Notes under the pieces: generated by a model
The model's input: only the letters and a program-made list of their open reading frames with translations
Databases searched by the model: none
Told to the model about the DNA's origin: nothing
Origin: Escherichia phage vB_EcoM_4HA13
Sequence record: NC_049466.2
Reading direction: 5' to 3' (one strand)
DNA: 52,401 nt
Part shown: positions 1 to 42,328 of the stretch, one piece after another
Numbering within the stretch: position 1 is the first letter of the stretch
Layout of the letters: the number at the start of each line of letters is the position of its first letter
Made by a program: the position numbers and the translations under genes

Positions 1-117
1 TTAAATACGGTCCCTACTCCAACTTTTTCTAGCCTATCGGCTTAGAACTAACACCAAGTTAGGCGCTTCGCTTATGAGTCAACGTCAACACCACTCGCTG
101 TGAGATTAGCACTGTTC

Positions 118-143
118 TGCTACATTAGTTGGAAATGATTGTG
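118..143 (+). promoter_or_regulatory. Conserved motif copy P0 (ACATTAGTTGGAAATGATTG); candidate phage promoter
   Basis: Matches the motif repeated at 2705, 6090, 10502 and 12635; lies upstream of first genes in window. Confidence 0.45.
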
Positions 144-193
144 AGAAGGCTACGCCAACTTAATCCGTTTCATAAACTACTGGAGATACAATC

Positions 194-361
194 ATGACTT
201 ACTACGATGCAGACTTAGGCTTGGTAATGTGCGAAAGCGAACTGTCCTTAGAGATAGACGCACTTGATTGGGAACACGAGCTACCTAAAGGTGAGCCACA
301 GTGGGGCGACGACGATTACGTTTATGTAGCGCCTACTGACGAATTTGATATCCCATTCTGA
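194..361 (+). CDS. Hypothetical small acidic protein (55 aa)
   Basis: ATG at 194 preceded by GGAGA; open to TGA at 359-361; below the 60-aa cutoff of the supplied ORF track. Confidence 0.35.
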   Translation: MTYYDADLGLVMCESELSLEIDALDWEHELPKGEPQWGDDDYVYVAPTDEFDIPF

Positions 362-398
362 TACTTGTCCTACTACCTGATACACAATCTGTCCTAAC

Positions 399-2363
399 TT
401 GATAAAACTGGAGCTTACAATGACTACTATCACCACTCAAACTATGAAATCTGTTGTCCCATCAATCGCTGCATTGGTATATCGTGCCAAAGAGAAACAG
501 CAATACATGGAGCCGCATACTTGTGCACTGGCTGCACTGGCTATCTTCCACATGATGACAATGTTCACTCGTGACGATGTTATCCCTGCTGTGTCAATGG
601 TTGAACTGGCAAACGCTTCAATTAAGAAGGCGAACTCCAGCAACAACGATATGAAACAATACCACTACGTTGACCCATCAATCAATCTGATTGGTCTGGC
701 TAAGCACTTTGGCTTCCTCAACATGAATGAGGATAAGTCGTTCCAACAAACTGAAGCATGGGTTGAACTGGTTACTACCAAAGATACCAGCATCCCATTC
801 ACGACTCCAGTCACTGCTGAGAATCGTCGTAAGCCTTACGTCAAAGGTGGCAAAGTTAAGCCGTCCAAGTTGTTGCGTAATACCATCAACTTCCTGCAAT
901 CAACCGAGTACCACGTAGATGGGCAAATGGTTGCAGTCATCAAGAAGATGCTCAAAATGAAACAGTTTGCTGGTGAGGTTATGCCAGTTGCTGTGAAACA
1001 AGAGGAACATGTTTGGAATGCGGCATTGAACATGGTGATTCAAGATACTCTGTTCTCTGACTACTTTGCTGACAATCGTGGTCGTTTGTATCACGTAGCT
1101 TGTGCTGGTCCTAATCCACAATCTTCTGACTTTGCTCGTTGCTTGTATTCTCACAACATTGAGAACTTCGTAAACAAGCTGAATGAAGATGGCTCAACCA
1201 CCGAAGCATACAACATGTTCATGGCTGAGCTGGATGATATCTCTGGTGGTGAGTGGAATACTCCACGCTACTTAACTCGTGTTGCTCAGAATCCTGCTGG
1301 TGCATTGGCTCAGATTCTCAACATGAGCAAAGAACAGAATCCACCTAAGAAGCCATTCACTTATGTACGTCTGGCATTAGATTGGTTCCAGTTTGAAACA
1401 ACTGGCAAGTGTGATTCTCGTGTAGGCTTTGGCTTAGATGCTAAATGTTCAGGTACTCAATACTTGGCATTCATTGCTGGCAATATGGAAATGGCTCAAG
1501 CAACTGGCTTAGTTGACAATGAGTCCAAAGCTCGTGACCCGTACCAATTATCTTTGGTGCAACTGATGAAACTGTTGGAGAAATCTAGCATGAATCCAAC
1601 TCAGGAAATCAAGGACGCATTCTTGAATCCGAAAGCTGGACGTAATTTCATCAAGACTCCATACATGGCAGTACAGTATGGTGGTGGTAAAGCAGCACTC
1701 ACTGGTAACAAGGACTTCTGCGATTATGTAGTCAACAATCTTCAAATTGACATTACTAAACTGGAAAACTTCGCTGACCTTTGTGTTGATGCAGTTCATG
1801 CAGCATTAGGTGAAAAGATTAACCTGTTTATTAATAAAGTGCAGGAAGCTGTTCAAGCTAAATGTGCTGCATTAAACAAACCATATTTCACCTACAAGCA
1901 CACTGATGGTCAGGTTGTGCACAAACCTTGCTTCCCATCTCGTGACATTTGTGAGGCATTCAGCATTCGTGTTGACTCTCAAACTCGTGTCATCTTTGGT
2001 CAGCAAATGGAGAACAAGCCTTGGACTATCCGTGAATCAAATCCAACTTGGGAAGAATTTAAACGTACTTTCGTTGTAAACTACATTCAGGGTATTGATG
2101 CACTTGTTGCACGTACTGTTGCAAAGTATGCAGAACTTGAAGGACTTCGTGGGTTCACTTCCATTCACGACTGTTTCCGTTGCTGCTTAGCTGATGCACC
2201 ACGTATGATGGATGTGATTCGTAAGGCGTATATTGAAGTATTTGTTACCAACAATCAGTTTGAGTCTTTGAGCAAACAACTTGGTGGCATTGAGATGTAT
2301 CATGAGAATATCGTAACAGAAGAACTGCTCAACTCTGAGCATGCATATTACTTCTGTCAGTAA
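399..2363 (+). CDS. Single-subunit T7-type RNA polymerase, short form (654 aa)
   Basis: DAKCSGTQY (compare T7 motif A DGSCSGIQH), YMAVQYGG (motif B), VNYIQGIDAL (compare PNFVHSQDGSHL) and IHDCF near C-terminus (compare IHDSFGT). About 230 aa shorter than T7 RNAP, so the N-terminal domain appears absent. Confidence 0.8.
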   Translation: MIKLELTMTTITTQTMKSVVPSIAALVYRAKEKQQYMEPHTCALAALAIFHMMTMFTRDDVIPAVSMVELANASIKKANSSNNDMKQYHYVDPSINLIGLAKHFGFLNMNEDKSFQQTEAWVELVTTKDTSIPFTTPVTAENRRKPYVKGGKVKPSKLLRNTINFLQSTEYHVDGQMVAVIKKMLKMKQFAGEVMPVAVKQEEHVWNAALNMVIQDTLFSDYFADNRGRLYHVACAGPNPQSSDFARCLYSHNIENFVNKLNEDGSTTEAYNMFMAELDDISGGEWNTPRYLTRVAQNPAGALAQILNMSKEQNPPKKPFTYVRLALDWFQFETTGKCDSRVGFGLDAKCSGTQYLAFIAGNMEMAQATGLVDNESKARDPYQLSLVQLMKLLEKSSMNPTQEIKDAFLNPKAGRNFIKTPYMAVQYGGGKAALTGNKDFCDYVVNNLQIDITKLENFADLCVDAVHAALGEKINLFINKVQEAVQAKCAALNKPYFTYKHTDGQVVHKPCFPSRDICEAFSIRVDSQTRVIFGQQMENKPWTIRESNPTWEEFKRTFVVNYIQGIDALVARTVAKYAELEGLRGFTSIHDCFRCCLADAPRMMDVIRKAYIEVFVTNNQFESLSKQLGGIEMYHENIVTEELLNSEHAYYFCQ

Positions 2364-2417
2364 CAACTAGTGCCAAGGATGGCGCATCAGTTGGAATAAA
2401 CTTAATAACAAAATCAA

Positions 2418-2630
2418 TTGGAGCATATAATGAACATTCAGCAAATCAAACAAATCGAAAACTGTTTCAACCCTCACCACGTTTGTAGCATGGACGACTT
2501 GTCCCGACCTACAGTTGATGAGACAAAAGACTTCTTAGAGTTGTTGGCAGAATACAAACAAGATTCGCATGTACTATTGCACGCATTCTTACACAACTCA
2601 GGATATTTTGATACAGAAATACCATTCTAA
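2418..2630 (+). CDS. Hypothetical protein
   Basis: ATG with GGAG RBS; followed directly by a terminator hairpin. Confidence 0.5.
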   Translation: MEHIMNIQQIKQIENCFNPHHVCSMDDLSRPTVDETKDFLELLAEYKQDSHVLLHAFLHNSGYFDTEIPF

Positions 2631-2634
2631 TATT

Positions 2635-2660
2635 GGGAGCTTCGGCTCCCTATTCTTGTT
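2635..2660 (+). terminator. Intrinsic terminator candidate (GGGAGC-UUCG-GCUCCC hairpin then U-rich tract)
   Basis: Perfect 6-bp stem with UUCG tetraloop followed by tattcttgtt. Confidence 0.55.
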
Positions 2661-2700
2661 CCAATTAATCTCAGAGCTGTGTTCAATATTGGAACTCAAC

Positions 2701-2723
2701 TGTGACATTAGTTGAAATTGAAG
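2701..2723 (+). promoter_or_regulatory. Conserved motif copy P1 (GACATTAGTTGAAATTGAAG)
   Basis: Same core ACATTAGTTG as the other copies; about 45 nt after the terminator. Confidence 0.45.
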
Positions 2724-2740
2724 TAACAGAATACGGAGAA

Positions 2741-3624
2741 ATATTCTGCATGTCATTTTTTATTGGTGTACAACAATATTAGCATGACAACTTGAAGCAC
2801 AGTGTGATTATGTTTGGCAACATAGAACTCCCTGAGTTTGGCCGCTCAAAGTTCCCGTCACCATGTAGAGAGTAAGAATAAGATTCGAAACTGTTGTTTC
2901 AACTAAGCATGACTCATCCCTAAAGAAGCTGGGACAGCTCATGTAGTACCCTGCTGTTTCCGAGAGTTGCAACAGGTTAAGCATGTCCAATTGTTCCAAT
3001 ATTGTCACAGTCCTATTATAAAGGCCCACCCACAAGCCGGGACTATTTAGACATGATTGGAACTTTTGGTTCATGCGATTGTAGAGAAAGTAAATTCGGT
3101 AAGAGAGCGAATACCGGACATTGTTCCGATTACAGGTATCGCCTACGCCCCGAAATTGAGCAACAAATATTGTGACAGTATTGCCTCAACAATGGCATGT
3201 GTTGCGTAGCGACAATCGTACAATATCCGCATGTAAGAATGTGCCAAACTGTTAGGGGACTAATCACCTCGAAGATACGGTGAACGTGGCAATCTAGCAT
3301 GTGGATTCGTTACGAAGATTGTGACAATAATCAGCATGTAATATTGTAACAGTATTGTGCTAACCCGCATGAATACTGGCTCTCAGCCAAGCGAAGGCTT
3401 TATCATTGCATGTAATATTGTGACAATATTGGGATTTTTAAAAGATTTATTCTTTTTATTTATTCTTTATTGTCGGTTTACAGCACTTGCTCAGCGAACT
3501 TTGAATGTGCCAAATACGTTCGAAATTGCTGTGAGTGTGGAAACCAATTAGTTATAAATGTGCATGTGATATTGTGACAATATTCTCCATTTGGCGGGGA
3601 GTGAAGTTGCAATATTGCATGTCA
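2741..3624. repeat. Array of related about 25-bp repeats built around the palindrome AATATTGT-G-ACAATATT, often preceded by GCATGT
   Basis: Copies near 2998, 3166, 3318, 3334, 3406-3433, 3560-3587 and 3609; the 3414-3430 copy is a perfect 8-1-8 inverted repeat. No credible ORF in 2631-3837. Confidence 0.6.
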
Positions 3625-3837
3625 TTCTTAGTCTAATTGCATGAAAGATAGGGCTAATTCTGTATGAATATTGGATTCAACAGGTGTCAATGTTGATACA
3701 GAATAAGCTCCAATTTATTCAACTTGATAGTTTGGCACGTATTGTGTCACATACTCCCTGATGCTTTAAGGTGGATTAAGGAACGAAAAAGCCTCCACAA
3801 CCGTCTGACGGAGTTTAATTTAAATTAGGAGTTTAAA

Positions 3838-4092
3838 ATGGCTATTGTAAAACAATGCATGTTCCAAGACCTTCTCGATGGTCAAGTATTTAAGCACAAA
3901 GACAAACGCTGGATTAAAGTTGCAGAATCCGGCGATTACAATGCTGTAAGTTTCCACAATTCAAATCTAACTTGTGATTTTGGATTATCCTGTATTGTTG
4001 AACTTGAAGTTTCGCTTGAGCCATCTGAATGGGATTTAGTTGACGATGAAGAAGTGCAACGTTCAATCGAAGGTTACAAGGAGAATTTCTAA
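3838..4092 (+). CDS. Hypothetical protein
   Basis: ATG with AGGAG RBS; first gene after the repeat region. Confidence 0.55.
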   Translation: MAIVKQCMFQDLLDGQVFKHKDKRWIKVAESGDYNAVSFHNSNLTCDFGLSCIVELEVSLEPSEWDLVDDEEVQRSIEGYKENF

Positions 4093-4331
4093 TGCGCTAT
4101 CAACTTGTTCAACTACCTGTAACTGAGTCCTTATCATCATTTGTTCTTCTGGACAATGTAACAAAGGTTTGCAAACTACGTGACCAATCAATTTACCCAG
4201 AAGATGGTGGCAAATTGGTGTGGAAGAATGCTGCTCATAACGATGCAGTATTAAACCGTGTTATGACCTATGGTGTTGTAGTTGCAGAAGCACAAGACCC
4301 GAAATTCCTTGCTGCTCATGGATTTTCATAA
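4092..4331 (+). CDS. Hypothetical protein
   Basis: Start overlaps upstream stop (translational coupling pattern). Confidence 0.5.
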   Translation: MRYQLVQLPVTESLSSFVLLDNVTKVCKLRDQSIYPEDGGKLVWKNAAHNDAVLNRVMTYGVVVAEAQDPKFLAAHGFS

Positions 4332-4528
4332 TGAAGTGGATTGTGTATTACCGAATCATTGGCGGTATTGATGCAGTTATTCGATACCGCAATCTTGCCA
4401 TTATGCAACATGACATTGAAATGGAAAAGGATAAACAATTCGACTACATTAACGCATGTACAATCTGTGATGATGGTAGTGAAGAGATTGTGTACTCTAG
4501 TGTTGAAGAAATATTAAATGCGAAGTAA
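4331..4528 (+). CDS. Hypothetical protein
   Basis: ATGA overlap with upstream gene. Confidence 0.45.
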   Translation: MKWIVYYRIIGGIDAVIRYRNLAIMQHDIEMEKDKQFDYINACTICDDGSEEIVYSSVEEILNAK

Positions 4529-4574
4529 AGACAAAACTTTCGTGGCTGGGCGTAGTGCTCATTAAGGTAAAATC

Positions 4575-4730
4575 ATGAATGATGACAATCGTTTCACCAA
4601 TCTGTTATTAGGTCAATTAGTTAATCAAGGTGTGAAGCCGAACAAGTTCGACCGTTTCTTCAATAGTTTGGTGAAATGGTTGGTCCTTGGTTTCGTTGCA
4701 TTTATGGCATTTGGAGAATTTCTGAAATGA
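4575..4730 (+). CDS. Hypothetical small membrane protein (51 aa)
   Basis: ATG at 4575; hydrophobic C-terminal segment WLVLGFVAFMAF; below ORF-track cutoff. Confidence 0.3.
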   Translation: MNDDNRFTNLLLGQLVNQGVKPNKFDRFFNSLVKWLVLGFVAFMAFGEFLK

Positions 4731-4948
4731 GTAATCTAGCAGCATTTAAGAATCTGGTTCGTCGTGCTCAAGTTAAAGCTGATAACCAGATTTGCCTGAT
4801 TGAGAATATGCCAATTACAACAAATGTTGGAATAATTCTGTATGCAGATAAGCGCATTAAAGAATTGGAAGCTACAATTCAAGCAATGCTGGAAACAGCA
4901 GAAGGTGCTGGCATTCCACGTTGTCAATTTGACGAGGATTTAAAATGA
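4727..4948 (+). CDS. Hypothetical protein
   Basis: Internal ATG at 4727 preceded by GGAGAA; the track ORF from 4676 overlaps the upstream small gene. Confidence 0.45.
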   Translation: MSNLAAFKNLVRRAQVKADNQICLIENMPITTNVGIILYADKRIKELEATIQAMLETAEGAGIPRCQFDEDLK

Positions 4949-5115
4949 TACTCCTTCGTCATATATCTGGAACCCTTTATGTGTGCACCGATGATTATTA
5001 TTTCGCGCAATATTGGAATTCTACGCAGAAGAAATGGCGAATATCTCAAATATTGCGTTCATCTTTGCAGAATAATTGTGTAAGAATTGGAAACAATTTC
5101 CTACGCAGCAAATAA
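4945..5115 (+). CDS. Hypothetical small protein (56 aa)
   Basis: ATG at 4945 with GAGGA RBS; below ORF-track cutoff. Confidence 0.3.
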   Translation: MILLRHISGTLYVCTDDYYFAQYWNSTQKKWRISQILRSSLQNNCVRIGNNFLRSK

Positions 5116-5131
5116 CAACCGGAGAATTATC

Positions 5132-5389
5132 ATGACTCGTACAGGAATGATGCTTGTTCCGCGTAGTGGTAATTCTCTTGGGGATTTCACTCCGTATAAA
5201 GTGTATACAGTATTATCAGGAACTGGTGAAGCCAATTTGTCACCAGTTGCTTTGCGTTTAGGCCACGTTGTTCACTCAGAACGTTCATGCAATGTTCGTG
5301 ATGACAAAGGAAATATCCGTTTTGTAACTTTGGACTTCTTTCGTGAATTTAGAATGAAATCAGAGTTGGGAGATTTGTTCCATGAGTGA
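5132..5389 (+). CDS. Hypothetical protein, member of a three-gene paralog set
   Basis: Start at internal ATG with GGAGAA RBS; shares a YK-[IV]-[VY]-[AT] segment with the next two genes. Confidence 0.5.
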   Translation: MTRTGMMLVPRSGNSLGDFTPYKVYTVLSGTGEANLSPVALRLGHVVHSERSCNVRDDKGNIRFVTLDFFREFRMKSELGDLFHE

Positions 5390-5451
5390 TTTAAAGACGC
5401 CAAAGTATGTAAAGAAAGTTTGGTACGATTGTCAGACAACAGGAGAGTATT

Positions 5452-5751
5452 ATGTTATTGCGTGACAAGAAGACTGGTCGTTTAAAGAAACAGCCAGCTA
5501 AAATTGGTGACAAAGTTATTGTGTTTGGTAAATATATCCGTACAGGATTGACGGCATATAAACCATACAAAATAGTTGCAACTCAGAACTCAAAGACTGA
5601 GAACCGTAAATCGTTTGGTACGGTTTACCCACTAGAGAAGTCAAATCTTAATCGTGGATTTGGTGTATTCATCATTGATAATGATGGAGACAAAGCATTC
5701 CTGTATCTTGGCGAAGATGTATTCGGCATGACAGTGGAGAAGTTAAAATGA
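5452..5751 (+). CDS. Hypothetical protein, paralog set
   Basis: AGGAG RBS; KPYKIVATQ motif resembles KTYKIVAGR in the next gene. Confidence 0.5.
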   Translation: MLLRDKKTGRLKKQPAKIGDKVIVFGKYIRTGLTAYKPYKIVATQNSKTENRKSFGTVYPLEKSNLNRGFGVFIIDNDGDKAFLYLGEDVFGMTVEKLK

Positions 5752-6050
5752 ACAAAAATTCGGTATTGAAATATGTCGGACACGATTACGTTGCTGGGCG
5801 TCGTCAAGCATTCACCAACAACAAAACGTACAAAATTGTTGCTGGCCGTGGCGATGGTGTTCCTCGTAACAATGGAACACTTGGCGCTTATATTCAATCA
5901 GCCACCAGCTGTGTTGTTATCGATGATGATAAAAAATATCGTCAGATTGAATGCAACCACAATTGGGAACTGGTCTTCGAAAGTGACGATGTAAGTTGGT
6001 ACAAGGATGAAGGTAAATCACCAATCCCAGCGTCCCGCGAGATTTGCTAA
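5748..6050 (+). CDS. Hypothetical protein, paralog set
   Basis: ATGA overlap with upstream paralog. Confidence 0.5.
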   Translation: MNKNSVLKYVGHDYVAGRRQAFTNNKTYKIVAGRGDGVPRNNGTLGAYIQSATSCVVIDDDKKYRQIECNHNWELVFESDDVSWYKDEGKSPIPASREIC

Positions 6051-6085
6051 CATTGCAAGCTGGCAAGCGAGGCCATTAACCCAAC

Positions 6086-6110
6086 TTCAACATTAGTTGG
6101 AATTGATAGG
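6086..6110 (+). promoter_or_regulatory. Conserved motif copy P2 (CAACATTAGTTGGAATTGATAGG)
   Basis: Intergenic, upstream of the gene at 6175. Confidence 0.5.
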
Positions 6111-6174
6111 AACGAATAGTTTAGCAATGACGCTGAAACTTAAACCGTAAATTACTTAAATAAGAGAGCAAACT

Positions 6175-6525
6175 ATGTCAAACGTAAAACAGTACGACGA
6201 TACTAACACTGGTATCATTGGTAAGAATGACTACAAACAGAAAGATACACATCCTGACCAACGTGGTCGTGTGAATATTAAAGGTTTGTGGTTTTGGGTA
6301 AGTGGTTGGGACAAAATGGCAAATGGCCGTCAGTTCACTTCTCTGGCATTCACTGAAATGACTCAGGCAGAAGTTGACACTATGATGGAGAAACGTGCCG
6401 CTAAATCTGCTCCACAGCAGCCTCAACAGCAGCAACAAGCTCAGGCTCCAGCTCAGCAAACTCCACCAGCAGGTCATCCGTCTCAGGAACCGCCGATGGA
6501 CTTTGATGACGATATTCCGTTCTAA
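6175..6525 (+). CDS. Small protein with Q/P-rich linker and a C-terminus identical to the E. coli SSB tail (EPPMDFDDDIPF)
   Basis: C-terminal 12 residues match the SSB tail as I recall it; N-terminal about 75 aa is W/F-rich but not recognisably a full SSB OB domain. Confidence 0.6.
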   Translation: MSNVKQYDDTNTGIIGKNDYKQKDTHPDQRGRVNIKGLWFWVSGWDKMANGRQFTSLAFTEMTQAEVDTMMEKRAAKSAPQQPQQQQQAQAPAQQTPPAGHPSQEPPMDFDDDIPF

Positions 6526-6583
6526 TTGATTTATCGATGCCATTCCACTTCGAGTGGCATCTATTAAACAAACTGGAGGAAAT

Positions 6584-7117
6584 ATGAAAAATGCTATCGT
6601 TTGGCCAGCACTTTGGGCTGAAAACAATGTGGAAATTGGTGACAAAATATACTCTCCGGTGCATGGAAGATGTACTGTAGTCCAACTTGAAGGTGAGCAA
6701 AAGCCAGCCAAGGAGGAAGAAGTTCCAGCTTGGCAACTGAAAGTTGGTGATGAAATTTGGTATGACAATGAGTGGCGCACGGTTTTAAGTGTGTATTGCC
6801 ACATTAAGTCTTGCTACCAGGAACCAAACTTATCTCAATCAAACTCAACGATTCCACTGTCTGTAAGAATGGACAAGAATCTCAAAATCCGTCGAAAAAC
6901 TGAGAACTATATTATGTCAGTTAACCTGTTAACGTCTCACGATTTGGTCAAAGAGTTGCAAGTTAAGCTCATTGACTATTCAGCATTAAATGATGCGCCA
7001 GACCGTATCGAAGCTGTACAGTCAGTTTTCATTGACAAAGTGCCAGTAATGCACGCATTGAAGAAAGAAATTCAAGCGGTGTATGCCAAACTTGGCGAAA
7101 ATATTAAGAAGATTTAA
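6584..7117 (+). CDS. Hypothetical protein
   Basis: First ATG with GGAGG RBS inside the track ORF 6554-7117. Confidence 0.55.
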   Translation: MKNAIVWPALWAENNVEIGDKIYSPVHGRCTVVQLEGEQKPAKEEEVPAWQLKVGDEIWYDNEWRTVLSVYCHIKSCYQEPNLSQSNSTIPLSVRMDKNLKIRRKTENYIMSVNLLTSHDLVKELQVKLIDYSALNDAPDRIEAVQSVFIDKVPVMHALKKEIQAVYAKLGENIKKI

Positions 7118-7172
7118 TTAACAAAGCATCTTCCCACTTCGGAGGGTGCTTGATTAATTAACTGGAGGAGTT

Positions 7173-7385
7173 ATGGAAGTAAGTGTTCATTTACCCGGAG
7201 GCTGCTCCGGCTTAAAGATGCAAGGTGTTGTTTGTCCTGAATGTGGTCATGGTGGTGGTTCAAGCTACCCGTGTTGGTGTAGCCATTGCTACGACAAGGG
7301 TGAGAAAGTATTAATGCTTTCATCTGTGAACAAGTTCACATATATCTCCAACTGGTGTGAATCAGTTAAGAAGCAGCGAGGATAG
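7173..7385 (+). CDS. Cys-rich small protein, putative zinc binding
   Basis: GGAGG RBS; CPECGH...CWCSHC pattern. Confidence 0.5.
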   Translation: MEVSVHLPGGCSGLKMQGVVCPECGHGGGSSYPCWCSHCYDKGEKVLMLSSVNKFTYISNWCESVKKQRG

Positions 7386-7386
7386 C

Positions 7387-7719
7387 ATGTATGTTTACTA
7401 CGAAACTTACAAGTATCCAGGAGCATTCTACACTCACAGAATTACCGTGTATGAAAATGCTAATGGACGTCTACGTGCGGTACTCGAAGCTAAGTATGGA
7501 CATAAAGCTGTGTCTTGGAATAAAAGGACAGGGCGATTCTATGTTCGTGAAACTTTGCGAATTGCCAGAGTACATAAAAACAAGCCACGAAACAGTCGCA
7601 CGAGACACTTCGGTGAGTGGCACTTTGCGACGTCGAGAAACTTTGCCTTATCAATATTTGCATCAATCGACGGAGAATATGGCGAACAAACAATTTCTAG
7701 AACACCAGAGTCCTATTGA
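7387..7719 (+). CDS. Hypothetical basic protein
   Basis: ATG at 7387 after GAGGA; chosen over the overlapping alternative frame 7391-7909 because it fits the downstream gene start. Confidence 0.4.
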   Translation: MYVYYETYKYPGAFYTHRITVYENANGRLRAVLEAKYGHKAVSWNKRTGRFYVRETLRIARVHKNKPRNSRTRHFGEWHFATSRNFALSIFASIDGEYGEQTISRTPESY

Positions 7720-7784
7720 ACGGCACATGAATCAGTTTGGTTGCACACGCCAAGAGGCCAAAGATGCAACATTTGGAGAAAGAT

Positions 7785-8183
7785 ATGGCAGCATTAAAAT
7801 ACTCGAAGGGCGCGAAGCTCCTAATAGTGAGCATATTTATCAGTATTGTGGTCTTGATTTCGGCCATCTGGAACGTCGCCTCAGCGTCTTCTGGATTGAT
7901 GACGTATAAATGTGGCGGATGGACTGCTGTAATTGAGCAGCGAGAAGAAGGCCCACTTGTGGCCTCTTTCCTGCCAGAAGTTGGAACGTGGGTTGAAATT
8001 CCAGTGAACGACCGTAGTGGTGATGACATGAATTTGTACTTCATGAGTATCGAAACTCAGAAACTCGCTGTGATGGGAGTAAACGCAAAGAATCAGATAT
8101 TCTTGCAAACATTCCGCAATCATCAGGCATACAAACTCAACAAACTTGAGCACTCATTGCTCTGTAAGAGAACGCATGGCTAA
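7785..8183 (+). CDS. Hypothetical membrane protein
   Basis: ATG with GGAGAAAG RBS; hydrophobic helix LLIVSIFISIVVLISAIW. Confidence 0.45.
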   Translation: MAALKYSKGAKLLIVSIFISIVVLISAIWNVASASSGLMTYKCGGWTAVIEQREEGPLVASFLPEVGTWVEIPVNDRSGDDMNLYFMSIETQKLAVMGVNAKNQIFLQTFRNHQAYKLNKLEHSLLCKRTHG

Positions 8184-8418
8184 GCAAGCATCAAAAGAAT
8201 TCGCCATTAATGGTGTAAACTACCTGCTTTCGTCAGACTGTGAAAAACAAATCTGGCCAAAGCTGTGTGACCGTGTTGAAAAACACTTAATTTTAATTGG
8301 AAGCGAAGCAGCCAAGTACATGTATGGTCCAGCCTCTGCTACTGGAAAGACCAAAATGTGTAATTCGCTTGTTTCTTTTCAATTAACCATTAATCCAGAA
8401 GGAAATCCGTTCCGATGA
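8176..8418 (+). CDS. Hypothetical protein
   Basis: Internal ATG with AAGAG RBS. Confidence 0.4.
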   Translation: MAKQASKEFAINGVNYLLSSDCEKQIWPKLCDRVEKHLILIGSEAAKYMYGPASATGKTKMCNSLVSFQLTINPEGNPFR

Positions 8419-8705
8419 AATTGGAAGAATTACCGATTGAGCTTAAAGCTGCAACAAAAGCAGCAGAAGCGCAGCAAACTTATGTCAATCAATTGGTGGA
8501 CTTGTTTAACAAAGGCCAAACCACCATTGAGGTGTTCGATAAAAACCTCAATACTTGGACAGAAGTTCCGCTAAGCGAGTTTAATGCAATGCAGAATAAT
8601 CGTTTGACTGAACTGCTGAAACATAAAGACACTCTGCAAGGTTTATATGACCAGTTGCAAAGTCCGCTTGATGAAGCATTCAAAAATGTTCCGAAGACAG
8701 CATAA
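8415..8705 (+). CDS. Hypothetical protein
   Basis: ATGA overlap with upstream gene. Confidence 0.5.
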   Translation: MKLEELPIELKAATKAAEAQQTYVNQLVDLFNKGQTTIEVFDKNLNTWTEVPLSEFNAMQNNRLTELLKHKDTLQGLYDQLQSPLDEAFKNVPKTA

Positions 8706-9103
8706 TGTCTAACGTGAAACTTGGACAACGTTCCTTAGACAGACTCAGTGGAGTGAATAGTAGTCTAGTAGCAGTATTAAAGAAAGCGTGCGAATCCATG
8801 CCTTTTGATATTACTGTACTAGAGGGCGTTCGTTCTTATGAGCGTCAACAGGAACTATTAAAGCAGGGTGCAACAAAAGTAAGTGTTAGTCGGCACATGT
8901 CCGGCAATGCTATTGACATTGCACCATACCCAATCGACTGGAACGACACAGAACGGTTCAAAATTGTAGCGCATCATATGTTTGCTGCTGCAAAAGAGCT
9001 GGGCATTGTTATTCGTTGGGGAGGTAACTGGAGTCGTCAAGACGAAACAGTTAAGCCAACCTCCTCATTCGTTGATATGCCGCACTTCGAACTTCCGGCA
9101 TAA
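8705..9103 (+). CDS. Endolysin, peptidase M15 family (L-alanyl-D-glutamate peptidase type)
   Basis: Size and motifs (SRHMSGNAIDIAPYP, IDWND, GGNW, HFEL) resemble the T5 endolysin family. Confidence 0.6.
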   Translation: MSNVKLGQRSLDRLSGVNSSLVAVLKKACESMPFDITVLEGVRSYERQQELLKQGATKVSVSRHMSGNAIDIAPYPIDWNDTERFKIVAHHMFAAAKELGIVIRWGGNWSRQDETVKPTSSFVDMPHFELPA

Positions 9104-9121
9104 ATTCCAATAGGAGCATCT

Positions 9122-9403
9122 ATGGAATATCACAAACTACCCGAACATATTGAGCATCTAAAGGCAAAACTTGTCAAAGCTCGTGAACTTTATTCAGAAG
9201 TTGCGCACAAAGAAAATCTGCATACGGCTGGGAAGGTTGAAATCACACTCAACGCAGCTGGTTATTATGGTAAATGTTATATTTCTGGTGAAGCATTGCG
9301 TAAGCTTGTTCATGCTGAAATCGCAGAGCTGGAACAGAAACTGGGCAGCGCTGAAGAACAGCACAAAGTTTTGGAAAAGGTTGCTGTCGGGCTTATTAAA
9401 TAA
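9122..9403 (+). CDS. Hypothetical protein
   Basis: AGGAG RBS. Confidence 0.5.
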   Translation: MEYHKLPEHIEHLKAKLVKARELYSEVAHKENLHTAGKVEITLNAAGYYGKCYISGEALRKLVHAEIAELEQKLGSAEEQHKVLEKVAVGLIK

Positions 9404-9469
9404 GTATTAGTATGCCCCATACCTCAGCAAGTAACTCGATTCATGAATGTTTTAAATCTGGAGTAAATC

Positions 9470-10003
9470 ATGGATTCACAAGTAATAATTGACCAGCTTA
9501 ACCGCGAAGTCAAAGATAAAACTCTGCTTATCCGTTTACATAATTTGCAGAATGGGACTGATATTTGGATTGATGGACTGTGTTGGCGTCTGTATGACTT
9601 CGATTTAGTTGATTACTTCAAAGAAGAGTTCGGCATTGAGATTGATTTACCGTTATCTTTCGATGTTTTGAAATCAGACAATGATTTCATTAACGAAGTG
9701 TGTTTCGGCAAGGTGTTTAAGCAACAAGTTTACGATGATGTAAATGGTCTGCTGGTTAACTATTCTGAAGATGCAATCCGTGAAGGTTTAGACTTAGGAG
9801 TTTCGGCAGAAAACTTTGCAGAAGCGTACAAAGGCCATTACGCAAACTTTATTTCGTTTGCAACTGGCATCTTTGACGAACTCGAACGTCCTGAATTGCC
9901 TGAGCGCTATCGAGACTGGATTGATTACGAGAAATATGCTGAGTGTTTGGAACAACAATACTACTTCGCAAATGGACATGTATTCGATGCAACGTATCTT
10001 TAG
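9470..10003 (+). CDS. ArdA-like acidic anti-restriction protein (tentative)
   Basis: Acidic 177-aa protein; C-terminal WIDYEKYA...YYFANGHVF resembles the ArdA C-terminus as recalled from memory. Confidence 0.5.
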   Translation: MDSQVIIDQLNREVKDKTLLIRLHNLQNGTDIWIDGLCWRLYDFDLVDYFKEEFGIEIDLPLSFDVLKSDNDFINEVCFGKVFKQQVYDDVNGLLVNYSEDAIREGLDLGVSAENFAEAYKGHYANFISFATGIFDELERPELPERYRDWIDYEKYAECLEQQYYFANGHVFDATYL

Positions 10004-10253
10004 TGCGGACTGGTTACAGCCCGGTGAAGTAATTTTCCACGAACCCCGTGGGCATTATTATGAATTACTTCATCGAACTTTAATTAAGTCTGACGTAAAA
10101 GGTGGAAGCTGGTCGAAAGGCTGGTGCTACCAAGAAGTGAAATCGGTGGAAGTGTTGAAGAATTGTATTCGACATGAACCACCAGCGGGAGAAGTTTATT
10201 CCCGACCGAACGAATTGTTCGACGAAGATTGGCGACTTGTTACTCCAGTGTAG
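9972..10253 (+). CDS. Hypothetical protein
   Basis: In-frame ATGs overlapping the end of the upstream gene; start uncertain. Confidence 0.35.
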   Translation: MDMYSMQRIFSADWLQPGEVIFHEPRGHYYELLHRTLIKSDVKGGSWSKGWCYQEVKSVEVLKNCIRHEPPAGEVYSRPNELFDEDWRLVTPV

Positions 10254-10383
10254 TTCCAAGCTGGAACCTTGATGTTCCAAGCGGGTTTGTAACTCGTTTG
10301 GGACTTCTTCTGACCCTTCGGCATTAGTAGGAAGTGCATCGGAGAAGTTTCCAAATCAATTAAAGCCACAACTGCATTATACA

Positions 10384-10500
10384 GAATGTGTCAAAATTCT
10401 GTCAAGAAATATTCCAAATATTCCACGCCAAAGGAATAGCGGAATAATAAATAATTTATTCTAATTATTATTAAATTTTGGAATATTGGAATAATATTGA
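10384..10500. repeat. AT-rich iteron-like cluster (AATATTCCA / TGGAATA units)
   Basis: Tandem and inverted copies of AATATTCCA directly upstream of motif copy P3. Confidence 0.5.
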
Positions 10501-10520
10501 AACATTAGTTGGAAGAAAGA
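10498..10520 (+). promoter_or_regulatory. Conserved motif copy P3 (GAAACATTAGTTGGAAGAAAG)
   Basis: Intergenic; followed by a long hairpin. Confidence 0.5.
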
Positions 10521-10526
10521 AACAAC

Positions 10527-10614
10527 ATCTTGAAGCATTCTTGTAACTTGGTAGTCCGTCCGGCGCCGTGACGTGTGAGAATGTTCGAATCATTCTACAA
10601 GAGTGCTTCAAGAT
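10527..10614 (+). ncRNA. Long imperfect hairpin with tRNA T-arm-like apex (GAATG-TTCGAAT-CATTC); candidate RNase III site or tRNA-like element
   Basis: 19-bp inverted repeat 10527-10545 / 10596-10614 with one mismatch; apical 5-bp stem with 7-nt loop TTCGAAT. Confidence 0.4.
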
Positions 10615-11327
10615 GGAATGTTTCCATCAATGTCCCGAGTATCTTGGTATCCGTTAGCAAGAACTCACAACCTAAACTTACAGTATAATCTGGCAGGTTA
10701 TCCACATAGGTTTTACGACATGTAGGGTTATTGATTTAGTTTAGACGCTATATCAATCGAACTTAGTACGAATAAGCAAGCTGATAGGGCTGAATAATTA
10801 GAGGTAATGACCTCATGCTTATGATTGTCGGTTCACAAAATTTGTATGGCTCATGTTAATTGGTTTTGAAGGAAGTTCAACTCACAATTATAGACCTTGA
10901 GCCAACATCAAATTGCTCTTATAGAGATACAGGAGATACGTATCACCGCTATTTGTTTCGCCTGACTAACGAAACAGAGAATGTGACAAAGGCTAGTCAC
11001 TGGAGTGTCGGCCTGTATCACTATAAGGGTAATTCCTGCAAGCCAGCCAGCGCCAGCCAAGCGCTACGGCATAAAGAGTGTGATTATATGGGTGGTGGTT
11101 TGCGTGTCTCAGACGTTACGGTGTTGCGCACAATGGCGCATCCTCAGAGTTCCTGTATCGCTTGAGTTGGGGCGCAAGTCTTCACCCACATAATCATACA
11201 GAATTGGAACAAACGCTTGGCAGTGGCTTGAATTTCGGGCTATTTGTGCAAGTCTGTGGTCTACTTTCAGTGGGCTAAAAGATAGAGAAACGTCACATTA
11301 ATTGAATCGAAAATTGGAGACATTCCT

Positions 11328-11627
11328 ATGATTCGTAAACATTCAGCAAGGGTTATAAAAGCAAAGAATGTACACACCGGAGAGATTGAAGCTTACGCTT
11401 TAATTGGTGGTGTATATTTTCTTGCTGGCTGGGAGAAATCCTATAAAAATCCTGGATTCAGTTTTATCGGACTAAATGACGAAACTGCATCATTGTTCGA
11501 AGAACGTGTTAAGTATTCTGCAAGCTTCTTGGAGTATTCGTTTGGTAAATCCATCAAACAACTGCTTTCCAAATCTTTCATTCACGAGTGGACTACCAAA
11601 CAGGAAGTCTACGGAGTTCCATTTTGA
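11328..11627 (+). CDS. Hypothetical protein
   Basis: ATG with GGAG RBS after about 1 kb of non-coding DNA. Confidence 0.5.
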   Translation: MIRKHSARVIKAKNVHTGEIEAYALIGGVYFLAGWEKSYKNPGFSFIGLNDETASLFEERVKYSASFLEYSFGKSIKQLLSKSFIHEWTTKQEVYGVPF

Positions 11628-11932
11628 AACGCAAAACTTTGAAACAAAAGCTCCGTGCACAGGTTCGTAAAACAAACGAACTTCGTAAGCAGGAGCATGA
11701 ACAAGCCGGAATTACAATCAACTTTGAACTTGCAGCAATGCAGTCAGTTGGTATGGCTCACGGCATCATGGCTACAATGATTCATGCCAAGAATCTGTTG
11801 GGCGAAAATGATTCTAAATATCACGAAATTCGTGACACGGCGCAGGAACGTATTGCACAGTGCGTTGTAGCATTAGTTGGAATGGGTATTCCTGCTGATG
11901 TAGTTAATCAGCGTATTGTGCAAGGTCATTAA
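11588..11932 (+). CDS. Hypothetical protein (start uncertain, GTG)
   Basis: Open frame overlapping upstream gene end; contains an internal promoter-motif-like copy at 11871-11883. Confidence 0.35.
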   Translation: MDYQTGSLRSSILKRKTLKQKLRAQVRKTNELRKQEHEQAGITINFELAAMQSVGMAHGIMATMIHAKNLLGENDSKYHEIRDTAQERIAQCVVALVGMGIPADVVNQRIVQGH

Positions 11933-11934
11933 CT

Positions 11935-12606
11935 ATGGCATTCGAGCAAGATAAAGAAATTGCGCTCGAAACTTGTAAACAGTGGCTTGAAGATAACGAT
12001 GCAGCGTATCTTGCAAAGGAAGATGTTATCATTTTCTGGACGCATTTTAATCCTGAGTCTAAACGTGGCGAGTGGTCACGATATAAGATGAAGGAAGCCT
12101 GTCGAGTTATTAAAGCCACTCGTGCAGGTTTCGCTGCAATGCGATTCATTAAGCCAGAACTGATTATGATGGCGGCTCAGGAAACCGAACGCGCCTACAA
12201 ACAGTCAGTTAAGTCTCGTTCCACAGTTCCATCTGAGTTCTTTAACTTGGAGCGCAGCGGTCACTTCAACAATTTAGAAATGTTGACAATGTGCATGTTG
12301 CAGGAATTAGTTGGAAGGGGATGGAACGTAGAAGCAATTTGCCTTGGAAAGCTTATGAAAAAGCTATTCGAAACAAAAGGCTTTACGTCCCCAAGCCGAA
12401 TGCTACGCTGGAAGCTGCTAAGGGCAGTCGCTGAAGAAGCGGGTGTAGTTATTCGGGATAGAACGAATCGAATCACTGTAACAGGTGTTGGACGGTTTGT
12501 GGCTATTCAAATCGAAGGAGTAAATGACTCCATTAAGGTTGAGTTCACCGTTGAAGAAACGCAGGACTTAATCACCGAATCAGTCAAACGATTTAATTTG
12601 ATTTAA
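11935..12606 (+). CDS. Hypothetical protein (223 aa)
   Basis: ATG 2 nt after upstream stop. Confidence 0.55.
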   Translation: MAFEQDKEIALETCKQWLEDNDAAYLAKEDVIIFWTHFNPESKRGEWSRYKMKEACRVIKATRAGFAAMRFIKPELIMMAAQETERAYKQSVKSRSTVPSEFFNLERSGHFNNLEMLTMCMLQELVGRGWNVEAICLGKLMKKLFETKGFTSPSRMLRWKLLRAVAEEAGVVIRDRTNRITVTGVGRFVAIQIEGVNDSIKVEFTVEETQDLITESVKRFNLI

Positions 12607-12631
12607 TTCGTTTGTAAATAAGAGCAGTTCT

Positions 12632-12654
12632 GAAACATTAGTTGGAATTGATTC
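12632..12654 (+). promoter_or_regulatory. Conserved motif copy P4 (GAAACATTAGTTGGAATTGATTC)
   Basis: Best match to the consensus; intergenic, upstream of the acidic gene. Confidence 0.5.
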
Positions 12655-16422: not shown

Positions 16423-17040
16423 ATGGGTTCGGACTTAACAGCAGTTAATGCTGCACGAGTCTCTTATGGTGCGGAGTCTAAAACGCTAACAAAACGCGAC
16501 TCCCACCTTCTGTCGTTTCTGGCAGAACATGAGCACGTAACACCTTTCCGCCACGCAGCAGTAACATTACGCTGCAAAGCGCCAATCTTCTTGGCGCGAC
16601 AATTGGGCAAGCATCAGGTTGGCTTTAGTTGGAACGAGATTTCTCGCCGCTATAAAGATGGTGATGCAATCGAAGTTGAATGCTACGTTCCTGAGTATGT
16701 TATGGCACGTCCTGATAAACTTATGACTCAGTGTGCAAGACATATGCCAGCAGATATTGCCGACGAAATGCGCATGTATATAAACAATGCTGCTAAGTCA
16801 GCAGTTCGCGAATATCAGGCATTAATTGGATTTGGAGTTGCACCAGAGCAAGCTAGAATGGTGTTACCTCAATCAATGATGACTGAATGGATTTGGACTG
16901 GCTCTCTCTATGGTTGGGCATCCATGTACAATCAGCGTTCCACTGAACACGCTCAATATGAAGCTCGCCTGTTTGCAGAAGAAGTTTCAAAAGTCATGTC
17001 AGAACTTTTCCCAATTTGCTGGGCGGAGTTGATTAAATAA
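16423..17040 (+). CDS. thyX: ThyX-like flavin-dependent thymidylate synthase (tentative)
   Basis: N-terminal AARVSYG and an ...S-x-NE-x-S-RRY segment resemble ThyX motifs; the canonical RHR is not intact. Confidence 0.5.
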   Translation: MGSDLTAVNAARVSYGAESKTLTKRDSHLLSFLAEHEHVTPFRHAAVTLRCKAPIFLARQLGKHQVGFSWNEISRRYKDGDAIEVECYVPEYVMARPDKLMTQCARHMPADIADEMRMYINNAAKSAVREYQALIGFGVAPEQARMVLPQSMMTEWIWTGSLYGWASMYNQRSTEHAQYEARLFAEEVSKVMSELFPICWAELIK

Positions 17041-21493: not shown

Positions 21494-21747
21494 TGGCACA
21501 GAAAGTTTTTGCGTTTTATGACGTGCAAGAAAACCGCCTACATATGTTTGTAGCAAATGCTGAACAAGCTGAAAATGATGCTGTAAACCAATTTATCGCA
21601 GCAAATGTAGATGAATTCTTTACTACTTCAAATCTGGAACAGGCTGAGAAATTGCAGTCTGTTATTTCTGAAACAACCTCCACCGACGAGCTGAAATCAG
21701 CATTAGTTGGATGGGACTTCCAACTTGAAATGATTCAAGTGGATTAA
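21493..21747 (+). CDS. Hypothetical acidic protein
   Basis: ATGA overlap with polymerase end; contains a promoter-motif-like copy at 21701-21711. Confidence 0.45.
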   Translation: MAQKVFAFYDVQENRLHMFVANAEQAENDAVNQFIAANVDEFFTTSNLEQAEKLQSVISETTSTDELKSALVGWDFQLEMIQVD

Positions 21748-27728: not shown

Positions 27729-27908
27729 ATGCGTACTATCACTTGTAATCACTGTGGGCATGAAATTGCAGAAGATGATTTCATTGTTCAGCAATGCCCA
27801 ATCTGTGACTCTTACATGGAAGTCAATCGTTTAAATCTTAAAGTAGATTCCGAACTTGGCACCATCATTCGTGTCAATCCTGTGCACACCTCTACATTAG
27901 TAGAATAA
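27729..27908 (+). CDS. Small zinc-ribbon protein (59 aa)
   Basis: GGAG RBS; CNHC...CPIC; below ORF-track cutoff; its 3' end holds a degenerate promoter-motif copy. Confidence 0.4.
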   Translation: MRTITCNHCGHEIAEDDFIVQQCPICDSYMEVNRLNLKVDSELGTIIRVNPVHTSTLVE

Positions 27909-27933
27909 GATTTAAAACAAAGAGAACGAATCA

Positions 27934-42297: not shown

Positions 42298-42302
42298 TGG
42301 AG

Positions 42303-42328
42303 CCGGGATTCGTCCCGGTCTTCGTTTT
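42303..42328 (+). terminator. Intrinsic terminator candidate (CCGGGA-UUCG-UCCCGG then UCUUCGUUUU)
   Basis: Perfect 6-bp stem, UUCG loop, U-rich tail; followed by a degenerate promoter-motif copy at 42332-42342. Confidence 0.5.

What the first reader, a model, noticed from the sequence alone, without database searches (positions are those of the whole stretch)
118..12654. Conserved 18-20 nt intergenic motif in at least five + strand copies
ACATTAGTTGGAATTGAT-like sequences occur at 122, 2705, 6090, 10502 and 12635, all intergenic and upstream of gene blocks. Degenerate copies sit at 11871, 21701, 27894 and 42332. Two copies closely follow UUCG-hairpin terminators. They are most simply read as promoters for the phage RNA polymerase or a phage-directed host polymerase, though the motif has no obvious -35/-10 spacing.
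Basis: seen in the sequence. Interest (0 to 1): 0.55.

Follow-up and report, generated by a model that had tools for sequence, protein, structure and literature searches.

The report
Predicted phage RNA polymerase promoters
The repeated ~24-base motif is real and is best read as the promoter for this phage's own small T7-like RNA polymerase, a prediction already published for sister phages but never tested by experiment.

Summary
The window matches Escherichia phage vB_EcoM-4HA13 (Chaseviridae) in length, GC content and gene layout. It carries a one-strand motif, (C/A)TKnRR-CATTAGTTG-N4-TGR.

A weight matrix trained only on relatives finds 15, 8 and 7 sites at 12, 16 and 20 bits or more on the + strand. 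Shuffles give 0.71, 0.085 and 0.01. No site reaches 12 bits on the - strand. Six of the seven strongest sites lie in the 13% of the genome outside genes, and four follow terminator-like hairpins.

The sites match, position for position, the nine "putative phage promoters" annotated in phiEcoM-GJ1 in 2008. So both the motif and its interpretation are already known for the family.

New support found here:
- The motif is present in every relative locus examined whose polymerase is 42% or more identical.
- Its variable parts change by lineage, together with the polymerase's specificity loop.
- One copy inside a gene is held by selection on the DNA itself.
- A copy always precedes the polymerase gene.

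No transcript 5' ends have been mapped, so promoter function and the start site remain inferred. The finding is real, sensible and ordinary.

The parts
117..140 (+). Motif copy P0 (CTGCTACATTAGTTGGAAATGATT), upstream of a 55-aa ORF and the RNA polymerase gene
   Evidence: 24.6 bits. Lies outside genes. Equivalent copies sit upstream of the polymerase gene in GJ1 (574), Y2 (190), L006 (9952), L015 (9917), L031 (9916) and Myduc (167).
420..2363 (+). Single-subunit RNA polymerase gene (647 aa from ATG 420; the longest ORF starts at TTG 399)
   Evidence: Pfam PF00940, E 2e-13. Catalytic motifs are invariant. AlphaFold2 model pLDDT 91.7. Best Foldseek match is T7 RNA polymerase, E 2e-19. hhalign aligns residues 153-642 to T7 317-881, probability 98%.
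2635..2650 (+). Terminator-like hairpin GGGAGC-UUCG-GCUCCC followed by a T-rich tail, 55 nt upstream of P1
   Evidence: z-score -3.0.
2700..2723 (+). Motif copy P1 (CTGTGACATTAGTTGAAATTGAAG); leads into a 1.1-kb stretch without genes
   Evidence: 26.4 bits. Syntenic with GJ1 'putative phage promoter 1'.
6085..6108 (+). Motif copy P3 (CTTCAACATTAGTTGGAATTGATA), 90 nt upstream of the gene at 6175, which sits where GJ1 has its single-strand DNA-binding protein gene
   Evidence: 27.0 bits. Syntenic with GJ1 promoter 3.
10274..10304 (+). Strong 14-bp terminator-like hairpin, 15 nt upstream of P4
   Evidence: z-score -4.2.
10316..10339 (+).
   Evidence: 21.6 bits. Syntenic with GJ1 promoter 4.
10497..10520 (+). 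Motif copy P5 with a degenerate 3' half (TTGAAACATTAGTTGGAAGAAAGA); forms a tandem pair with P4 ahead of a 340-nt stretch without genes
   Evidence: 13.7 bits. The GJ1 equivalent, promoter 5, is a full copy.
11865..11888 (+). In-gene copy (TTGTAGCATTAGTTGGAATGGGTA) near the 3' end of ORF 11588-11932
   Evidence: 16.0 bits. Kept in some relatives and lost in PM1 and Faunus.
12299..12322 (+). In-gene copy P6 (core GAATTAGTTGGA) inside ORF 11935-12606, held by selection on the DNA sequence
   Evidence: Syntenic with GJ1 promoter 6. Of 29 invariant columns of amino acids with at least four codons, in 8 genomes, only the three codons TTA GTT GGA under the motif never vary.
12585..12614 (+). A/U-rich hairpin upstream of P7
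   Evidence: z-score -2.2.
12630..12653 (+). Motif copy P7 (CTGAAACATTAGTTGGAATTGATT), 100 nt upstream of the gene at 12730
   Evidence: 27.5 bits, the best site. Syntenic with GJ1 promoter 7.
16814..16837 (+). In-gene copy (ATCAGGCATTAATTGGATTTGGAG), about 240 nt upstream of the primase/helicase gene
   Evidence: 17.4 bits. Not examined in relatives.
21695..21718 (+). Motif copy P8 (AATCAGCATTAGTTGGATGGGACT) at the 3' end of ORF 21493-21747, 79 nt upstream of the gene at 21774
   Evidence: 22.8 bits. Syntenic with GJ1 promoter 8. Kept in L011 and GJ1, not in the Y2 type.
27889..27912 (+). Weak copy (CCTCTACATTAGTAGAATAAGATT), 45 nt upstream of the large terminase gene
   Evidence: 10.6 bits. 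A syntenic weak copy sits at GJ1 26986.
42296..42326 (+). Terminator-like hairpin with a UUCG loop, immediately upstream of P9
   Evidence: z-score -3.7.
42325..42348 (+). Motif copy P9 (TTTTAATATTAGTTGAACGTGTAT), 46 nt upstream of the gene at 42371
   Evidence: 20.0 bits. Syntenic with GJ1 promoter 9.

Best explanation
The motif is the promoter recognised by the phage's own 647-aa T7-family RNA polymerase.

Proposed mechanism (inferred). Host polymerase first makes a little phage polymerase. That enzyme then binds the roughly 24-bp element directly, without a sigma factor, and reads the 9-bp core CATTAGTTG through its specificity-loop beta-hairpin. It starts transcription at or just after the conserved TG(A/G). 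The invariant G, 14 nt after the C of the core, is the best candidate for +1.

Consequences (inferred):
- Strong copies restart transcription after terminator-like hairpins at the head of each early and middle gene block: P1, P3, P4/P5 and P7.
- Weaker variants (P8, 27889, P9), together with read-through, serve the late genes.
- The copy upstream of the polymerase gene (P0) gives positive feedback on the polymerase's own synthesis.

What is shown: the motif's statistics, its orientation, its conservation under selection, its co-variation with the polymerase, and the polymerase's T7-like fold and catalytic motifs.

What is inferred: that this polymerase binds the motif, where transcription starts, and the temporal roles of the copies.
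For: 1. Statistics and orientation. 15, 8 and 7 sites at 12, 16 and 20 bits or more on the + strand, against 0.71, 0.085 and 0.01 in shuffles; none on the - strand at 12 bits or more.
2. Position. Six of the seven strongest sites lie in the 13% of the genome outside genes, 45-100 nt upstream of gene starts. Four follow stable hairpins.
3. Shape. Across 104 non-redundant sites the conserved span is one continuous block of about 24 nt. Information drops to background on both sides, and there is no -35/-10 pair. The sigma-70 scan finds fewer sites than in shuffles.
4. The enzyme. The polymerase has invariant motifs A, B and C, a confident T7-like model and a specificity loop that aligns with that of T7.
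5. Co-variation.
   - Every relative locus examined with a polymerase at least 42% identical carries the motif on the + strand (nearly all above 16 bits), except one (L009), which has a diverged form.
   - Nearly all loci at 40% or less lack it.
   - The N4 spacer and the flanks are specific to each lineage.
   - A lineage with an altered loop tip has TTAGTAGG in all its copies.
   - L037 is only 37% identical overall but keeps an RVIFG-type loop, and it keeps CATTAGTTG: 4 copies against 0.01 expected.
6. Selection on the DNA. The in-gene copy P6 shows it directly.
7. Prior annotation. The sites are syntenic with the nine putative phage promoters of phiEcoM-GJ1.
Against: - No transcript 5' ends, in vitro transcription or binding data exist for any member of the family. 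The ICTV 2022 profile states that the promoter sequences have not been identified.
- The motif has no significant similarity to T7, T3, SP6, K11, KP34 or Syn5 promoters.
- The first 152 residues of the polymerase have no detectable counterpart in T7's promoter-binding N-terminal domain. Recognition may therefore work differently.
- Only three moderate or weak copies serve about 30 kb of late genes.
- Because every gene is on the + strand, strand bias alone cannot separate a DNA signal from an RNA signal.
Confidence: 0.8

Rival explanations
1. The motif is a promoter element read by host RNA polymerase redirected by a phage-encoded factor, such as a sigma-like or MotA/AsiA-like protein, rather than by the phage polymerase.
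For: The motif has no similarity to known single-subunit polymerase promoters. Copies lie upstream of the polymerase gene itself, which must first be expressed by the host enzyme. Most early ORFs have no known function.
Against: No conserved -10-like element sits at any fixed distance on either side of the motif; information is below 0.3 bits outside the 24-nt span. No sigma or helix-turn-helix regulator family was detected among 39 early and middle ORFs. Motif variants track the specificity loop of the phage polymerase.
Confidence: 0.07
2. The motif is a DNA binding site for some other protein, such as a regulator, a replication or packaging factor, or a recombination or homing site at module boundaries, and is not a promoter.
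For: Copies sit at the boundaries of gene modules. P1 and the P4/P5 pair lead into long stretches without genes. Palindromic repeats lie next to some copies.
Against: The motif is asymmetric and always co-oriented with the genes (15 against 0). Sites for dimeric regulators are usually palindromic and work in either orientation. Copies lie 45-100 nt upstream of start codons and just after terminator-like hairpins. The co-variation is with the polymerase loop.
Confidence: 0.07
3. The motif acts in the RNA, for example as an RNase processing site or a stability or translation element, which would also explain why it is confined to the transcribed strand.
For: All copies are on the coding strand. 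The selection on the in-gene copy P6 could act on the mRNA as well as on the DNA.
Against: Several copies lie directly downstream of strong terminator-like hairpins, where little RNA should arrive. P0 starts only 117 nt from the start of the window; this is the physical left end only if, as I assume but have not shown, the window begins at the terminal repeat. The motif has no self-complementarity or conserved structure, and no Rfam family matches.
Confidence: 0.04

Closest known systems
Putative phage promoters 1-9 of Escherichia phage phiEcoM-GJ1 (GenBank EF460875; Jamalludeen et al. 2008, Appl Environ Microbiol 74:516), re-annotated in vB_EcoM_SA91KD (OL960574)
   Same: Same consensus (AAACATTAGTTGGAWKTGA), same strand and the same syntenic positions: P1, P3-P9 (P2 has only a degenerate counterpart in the window). 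The cognate polymerase is orthologous at 75% identity.
   Different: - The window's equivalent of P2 is degenerate, and P5 has lost its 3' half.
- The window and GJ1 share a further copy upstream of the polymerase gene, which GenBank does not annotate in GJ1.
- These promoters are predictions only.
Eight predicted RNA-polymerase-specific promoters of Pectobacterium phage PP101 (PMC6989608), and the statement in the review PMC8472413
   Same: Same family and same hypothesis: a consensus promoter for the phage's single-subunit polymerase, spread along a genome transcribed in one direction.
   Different: The consensus appears only in a figure that is not held here. No experiments were done. The ICTV profile still lists the promoters as not identified.
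T7, T3 and SP6-type promoters of Autographiviridae (about 23 bp, -17 to +6, read by the specificity loop of the single-subunit polymerase)
   Same: Similar length. One continuous block of conservation, one orientation, positions between genes and after terminators, a cognate T7-fold polymerase, and lineage-specific variation that tracks the specificity loop.
   Different: - No sequence similarity: at least 6 mismatches of 23 to any of these consensus sequences, which I quoted from memory.
- The polymerase is 647 aa against 883, and its N-terminal 152 residues do not align with T7's promoter-binding domain.
- A copy precedes the polymerase gene itself, unlike T7 gene 1 (from my own knowledge of T7).
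- Late genes have few copies.

Membership tests
Chaseviridae (phiEcoM-GJ1-type) putative phage promoter | Matches the consensus AAACATTAGTTGGAWKTGA | tested here: met
   A matrix trained on GJ1, Y2 and L006 sites scores seven window sites at 20 bits or more. Direct alignment.
Chaseviridae (phiEcoM-GJ1-type) putative phage promoter | Syntenic positions relative to conserved genes | tested here: met
   Window sites 2703, 6088, 10319, 10500, 12302, 12633, 21698 and 42328 correspond to GJ1 P1, P3, P4, P5, P6, P7, P8 and P9.
Chaseviridae (phiEcoM-GJ1-type) putative phage promoter | The genome encodes the orthologous single-subunit RNA polymerase | tested here: met
   75-78% identity to the polymerases of the subfamily Cleopatravirinae.
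Chaseviridae (phiEcoM-GJ1-type) putative phage promoter | Directs transcription initiation | not testable with these tools
   No start-site mapping for any chasevirus was found in the paper library.
T7-type single-subunit RNA polymerase promoter | One continuous conserved block of about 20-23 bp, in one orientation, co-directional with the genes | tested here: met
   The conserved span runs from -6 to +17 relative to the C of CATTAGTTG in 104 non-redundant sites. Strand counts are 15 against 0.
T7-type single-subunit RNA polymerase promoter | A cognate T7-fold polymerase with catalytic motifs A, B and C and a specificity loop | tested here: met
   The loop aligns to the T7 segment PIQTRLNLMFLGQFR; that this segment is T7's specificity loop is from my own knowledge.
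T7-type single-subunit RNA polymerase promoter | Promoter sequence co-varies with the polymerase's specificity loop across relatives | tested here: met
   This is a correlation across lineages, not a proof of contact.
T7-type single-subunit RNA polymerase promoter | Sequence resembles the T7, T3, SP6 or K11 consensus (for example the CACTATAG initiation region) | tested here: not met
   The best match in the window has 6-8 mismatches of 23. The motif shares at most 10 of 18 positions in any ungapped alignment.
T7-type single-subunit RNA polymerase promoter | The polymerase has the N-terminal AT-rich recognition loop and the intercalating hairpin | tested here: inconclusive
   hhalign covers only residues 153-642. 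The first 152 residues have no T7 counterpart by sequence. A residue-level structural alignment was not available.
T7-type single-subunit RNA polymerase promoter | Defined +1 (usually G) at a fixed distance, with rifampicin-resistant initiation | not testable with these tools
   Only a candidate can be named: the G at +14 is kept in 103 of 104 sites.
Bacterial sigma-70 promoter | -35 and -10 hexamers separated by 16-18 bp | tested here: not met
   No hexamer pair overlaps any copy. There is no conserved element at -10 or -35 distance from the motif.

The most novel reading that the evidence does not exclude
The motif and the 647-aa enzyme form a compact, natural polymerase-promoter pair. It lacks a detectable T7-type N-terminal promoter-binding domain and relies on a 9-bp core plus a TG element. 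The pair is wired as a natural self-activating gene, with a promoter upstream of the polymerase gene inside the long terminal repeat. It uses promoters embedded in coding sequence that are kept by selection on the DNA. If so, the family-wide rule CATTAGTTG-N4-TGR, with N4 tracking the specificity loop, would supply the promoter definition that the ICTV profile says is missing, and a set of ready-made orthogonal pairs.
Probability: 0.45. Interest if true: 0.5.

Novelty: already known. Interest (0 to 1): 0.3.

Why it matters
Chaseviruses are being developed against E. coli, Erwinia, Pectobacterium and Aeromonas, yet their transcription programme has never been mapped. A verified promoter rule would allow proper annotation of about a hundred genomes. 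It would explain how a myovirus uses a T7-like polymerase, and it could yield small orthogonal polymerase-promoter pairs for synthetic biology.

Tried and rejected
- **Sigma-70 promoters.** The scans found fewer sites than in shuffles, and none coincided with the motif.
- **Rfam and tRNA searches.** They found nothing at the motif.
- **Sequence search of the polymerase against PDB.** The single sequence gave no hit. Only a profile reached T7.
- **De novo 10-mer counting on whole genomes.** Codon periodicity swamped it, so I switched to repeat families and a weight matrix.
- **Searching for the Nefertitivirinae counterpart motif.** pAh6-C, L041 and L044 gave only weak two- or three-copy candidates and were not pursued.
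- **Literature search for the motif sequence.** It returned only unrelated primers.
- **Papers and records not held.** The 2008 GJ1 paper and the Y2 paper are not held. The 4HA13 GenBank record is not in the collections.
- **Codon tests on P8 and 11868.** There were too few orthologs, and the copies are not kept in all lineages.
- **Chance or codon-usage artefact.** Rejected, because in-gene sites also exceed codon-shuffled expectation: 8 against 0.48.


Full report
**What the window is.** All long ORFs are on the + strand. The first large gene (ATG 420-2363) matches Pfam RNA_pol PF00940. Nucleotide searches hit only Chaseviridae myophages, at about 75-81% identity over partial coverage: phiEcoM-GJ1, ST32, Mangalitsa, Faunus and others.

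The window is 52,401 bp with 42.8% GC and no tRNA genes. This matches the published description of Escherichia phage vB_EcoM-4HA13, genus Sabourvirus: 52,401 bp, 42.8% GC, no tRNA, all genes on one strand, and a 3,120-bp direct terminal repeat (PMC9699118). That paper does not mention promoters.

- CATTAGTTG occurs 8 times on + and 0 times on -.
- To avoid circularity I built a 24-column weight matrix from 18 sites in relatives only (GJ1, Y2 and a metagenomic contig). In the window it finds 15, 8 and 7 sites at 12, 16 and 20 bits or more on the + strand, and none at 12 bits or more on the - strand.
- Dinucleotide shuffles give 0.71, 0.085 and 0.01.
- The seven sites at 20 bits or more start at 117, 2700, 6085, 10316, 12630, 21695 and 42325. 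Six of them lie in the 13% of the genome outside genes.
- In-gene sites are also more frequent than codon-shuffled genes predict: 8 against 0.48.

- 10502 keeps only the 5' half of the motif.
- A better copy at 10319 and in-gene copies at 12302 and 16814 were missed.
- 11871 lies inside a gene.

Stable hairpins precede P1 (2635-2650, UUCG loop), P4 (10274-10304), P7 (12585-12614) and P9 (42296-42326, UUCG loop).

**It is already annotated in sister phages.** GenBank EF460875 (phiEcoM-GJ1) carries nine "putative phage promoter" features. OL960574 (SA91KD) annotates the same sequences and cites Jamalludeen et al. 2008.

Side by side, the window copies are the positional equivalents of GJ1 P1 and P3-P9; P2 has only a degenerate counterpart in the window.

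Both genomes, and Y2, L006, L015, L031 and Myduc, also have a copy just upstream of the polymerase gene. It is not annotated in GJ1.

The PP101 paper hypothesises eight polymerase-specific promoters (PMC6989608). A review repeats this (PMC8472413). The ICTV profile says the promoters "have not yet been identified" (PMC12842549). I found no transcript mapping for any chasevirus.

**The polymerase.**
- An alignment of 42 homologs keeps the catalytic motifs invariant: DAKCSGTQ (motif A), K412, Y415 and Y420-GG (motif B), and H583-D584 (motif C).
- The AlphaFold2 model is confident (pLDDT 91.7). Its best structural matches are T7 RNA polymerase complexes (E 2e-19, TM-score 0.6, 13% identity).
- Profile comparison aligns residues 153-642 to T7 317-881 at 98% probability. 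This includes a beta-hairpin (about residues 507-538) opposite the T7 segment PIQTRLNLMFLGQFR, which from my own knowledge is T7's specificity loop.
- The first 152 residues have no T7 counterpart by sequence.

The enzyme is therefore very likely active. Its promoter-binding N-terminal part is either much reduced or different.

**Comparative evidence.**

Thirty-one IMG/VR loci and four contigs around polymerase homologs were scanned.
- Every locus with a polymerase at least 42% identical carries the motif on the + strand, nearly always above 16 bits. The exception is L009 (41-42%), which has the diverged form described below.
- Only isolated - strand hits occur. The most recurrent one, in the E. 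coli phages, is a conserved coding segment inside the polymerase gene.
- Nearly all loci at 40% or less, including the Nefertitivirinae phage pAh6-C, lack the motif.

Across 104 non-redundant sites the conserved span runs from -6 to +17 relative to the C of CATTAGTTG. The G at +8 is invariant, and the G at +14 is kept in 103 of 104 sites. Information is at background outside the span. The rule is (C/A)TKnRR-CATTAGTTG-N4-TGR.

The N4 spacer and the flanks are specific to each lineage:

| Lineage | Motif variant |
|---|---|
| E. coli and Erwinia phages | GGAWKTGA |
| Myduc | GAGWGTGAAG |
| L036 | GGAGGTGGAG |
| L037 | ATAATGGAG |
| L007 (altered loop tip) | TTAGTAGG in all copies |
| L009 (different loop) | GTTGGAAATGG kept, 5' half replaced |

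L037 is only 37% identical overall, yet it has an RVIFG-type loop and keeps CATTAGTTG: 4 copies against 0.01 expected. Lineages at 35-40% identity with other loops have no copies. Motif presence therefore follows the loop sequence better than it follows overall identity.

**Selection on the DNA itself.** The in-gene copy P6 overlaps the codons for Leu-Val-Gly. In 8 non-redundant genomes, 29 alignment columns hold an invariant amino acid that has at least four codons. Twenty-six of these columns use two to six different codons. The only three that use a single codon are TTA GTT GGA, under the motif core. The residue before them varies (E, T or A), but the DNA stays (A/C)A, which matches the motif. 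In lineages with a divergent motif this in-gene copy is lost. The element is therefore functional as nucleic acid and is not a by-product of the protein sequence.

**Alternatives.**
- *Sigma-70 promoters.* No hexamer pairs coincide with the motif, and sigma-70-like sites are fewer than in shuffles.
- *A phage factor redirecting host polymerase.* No -10-like element lies at a fixed distance. No sigma or helix-turn-helix family was detected in 39 early and middle ORFs.
- *An operator or another protein-binding site.* The motif is asymmetric and always co-oriented with the genes.
- *An RNA element.* Copies sit just after strong hairpins and within 117 nt of the window start, and no structure or Rfam match exists.

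None of these is formally excluded without transcript data.

**Mechanism proposed.** The phage polymerase binds the 24-bp element through its specificity loop and starts at or near the invariant G at +14. An ungapped alignment to SP6 would instead place +1 about 3 nt further on (10 of 18 identities, not significant).
- Terminator-promoter modules define the early and middle transcription units.
- Weak variants plus read-through serve the late genes.
- P0 creates positive feedback on polymerase synthesis.
- P1 and the tandem pair P4/P5 fire into long stretches without genes. By analogy with T7's transcription-activated origin (from my own knowledge of T7) these could relate to replication or to formation of the terminal repeat. 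That is speculation.

**Verdict.** It has been predicted for this phage family since 2008 and is ordinary in kind. The family-wide rule, the co-variation with the loop, the selection on an in-gene copy and the conserved copy upstream of the polymerase gene are modest additions. They strengthen the published hypothesis, which remains untested.

Noticed in passing
window 2980-3585; also 10482-10498, 51990-52006, 52332-52348: A second repeat family. The 17-bp palindrome AATATTGTGACAATATT is usually preceded by GCATGT. Matches fall at about 9 places, against 0.46 matches expected by chance. Six lie in the gene-free stretch after the polymerase gene. Others abut P5 and the right end of the window. 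If the window starts at the terminal repeat, which I have not shown, they bracket both reported boundaries of the 3,120-bp repeat. Related elements sit just upstream of P1 in GJ1, SA91KD and Y2. Function unknown: an operator, a host promoter, or a signal for replication or for forming the terminal repeat.
   Followed up: partly
window 2725-3837; L006 11917-13369; L007 8033-10523; L008 4650-5988; pAh6-C (L005) 23532-24657: A stretch of more than 1 kb without called genes directly downstream of the RNA polymerase gene is kept across the whole family, including Nefertitivirinae. In Myduc the predicted terminal repeat (1-3202) ends inside it.
   Followed up: partly
window 20350-20962: The family-A DNA polymerase gene is split (18871-20361 and 20999-21493) by about 640 bp. 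The insert gives a full-length but below-threshold match to Rfam group I intron RF00028 (27.3 bits, E 8e-4) and holds an HNH endonuclease ORF (20431-20868). In GJ1 the polymerase gene is uninterrupted.
   Followed up: partly
window 15234-16117 and 13090-13471: Two further long stretches without ORFs of 40 aa or more on the + strand, apart from one 40-aa ORF at 15473-15595. The 880-nt one is GC-rich and looks structured. No Rfam family reaches threshold; only chance-level tmRNA-like hits occur at 13255-13418. GJ1 has a tRNA-Arg with a putative intron in the matching area; the window has no tRNA.
   Followed up: partly
L007 4947-5190 and 8188-8440 (Symbiopectobacterium-labelled contig ML240327.1): The motif variant GCATTAGTAGGMTTTGR occurs as tandem arrays of 3-4 copies, 70-86 bp apart, on both sides of the polymerase gene. 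This arrangement was not seen in the isolated phages.
   Followed up: no
window 13001-38000: Megablast found 84 phage records, including Tequatrovirus and Salmonella phages, with a short segment at 90-99% identity. This is far above the roughly 75% of true relatives. It is probably a mobile endonuclease or intron segment, but it was not located.
   Followed up: no
window 399-420: The longest polymerase ORF starts at TTG 399 (654 aa). The homologs, and a GGAG ribosome-binding site, point to ATG 420 (647 aa).
   Followed up: yes
GJ1 (L002) 2296, ST32 and Mangalitsa equivalents; window 2058 (- strand): One recurrent - strand match to the matrix (ATTCTTCTTTAGTTGGATTGGACT, 17-20 bits) lies antisense inside the polymerase gene of E. 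coli, Pectobacterium and Erwinia relatives (GJ1, Mangalitsa, ST32, PM1, Faunus). It looks like a conserved coding segment rather than a site. The window's version scores 11.9 bits.
   Followed up: partly
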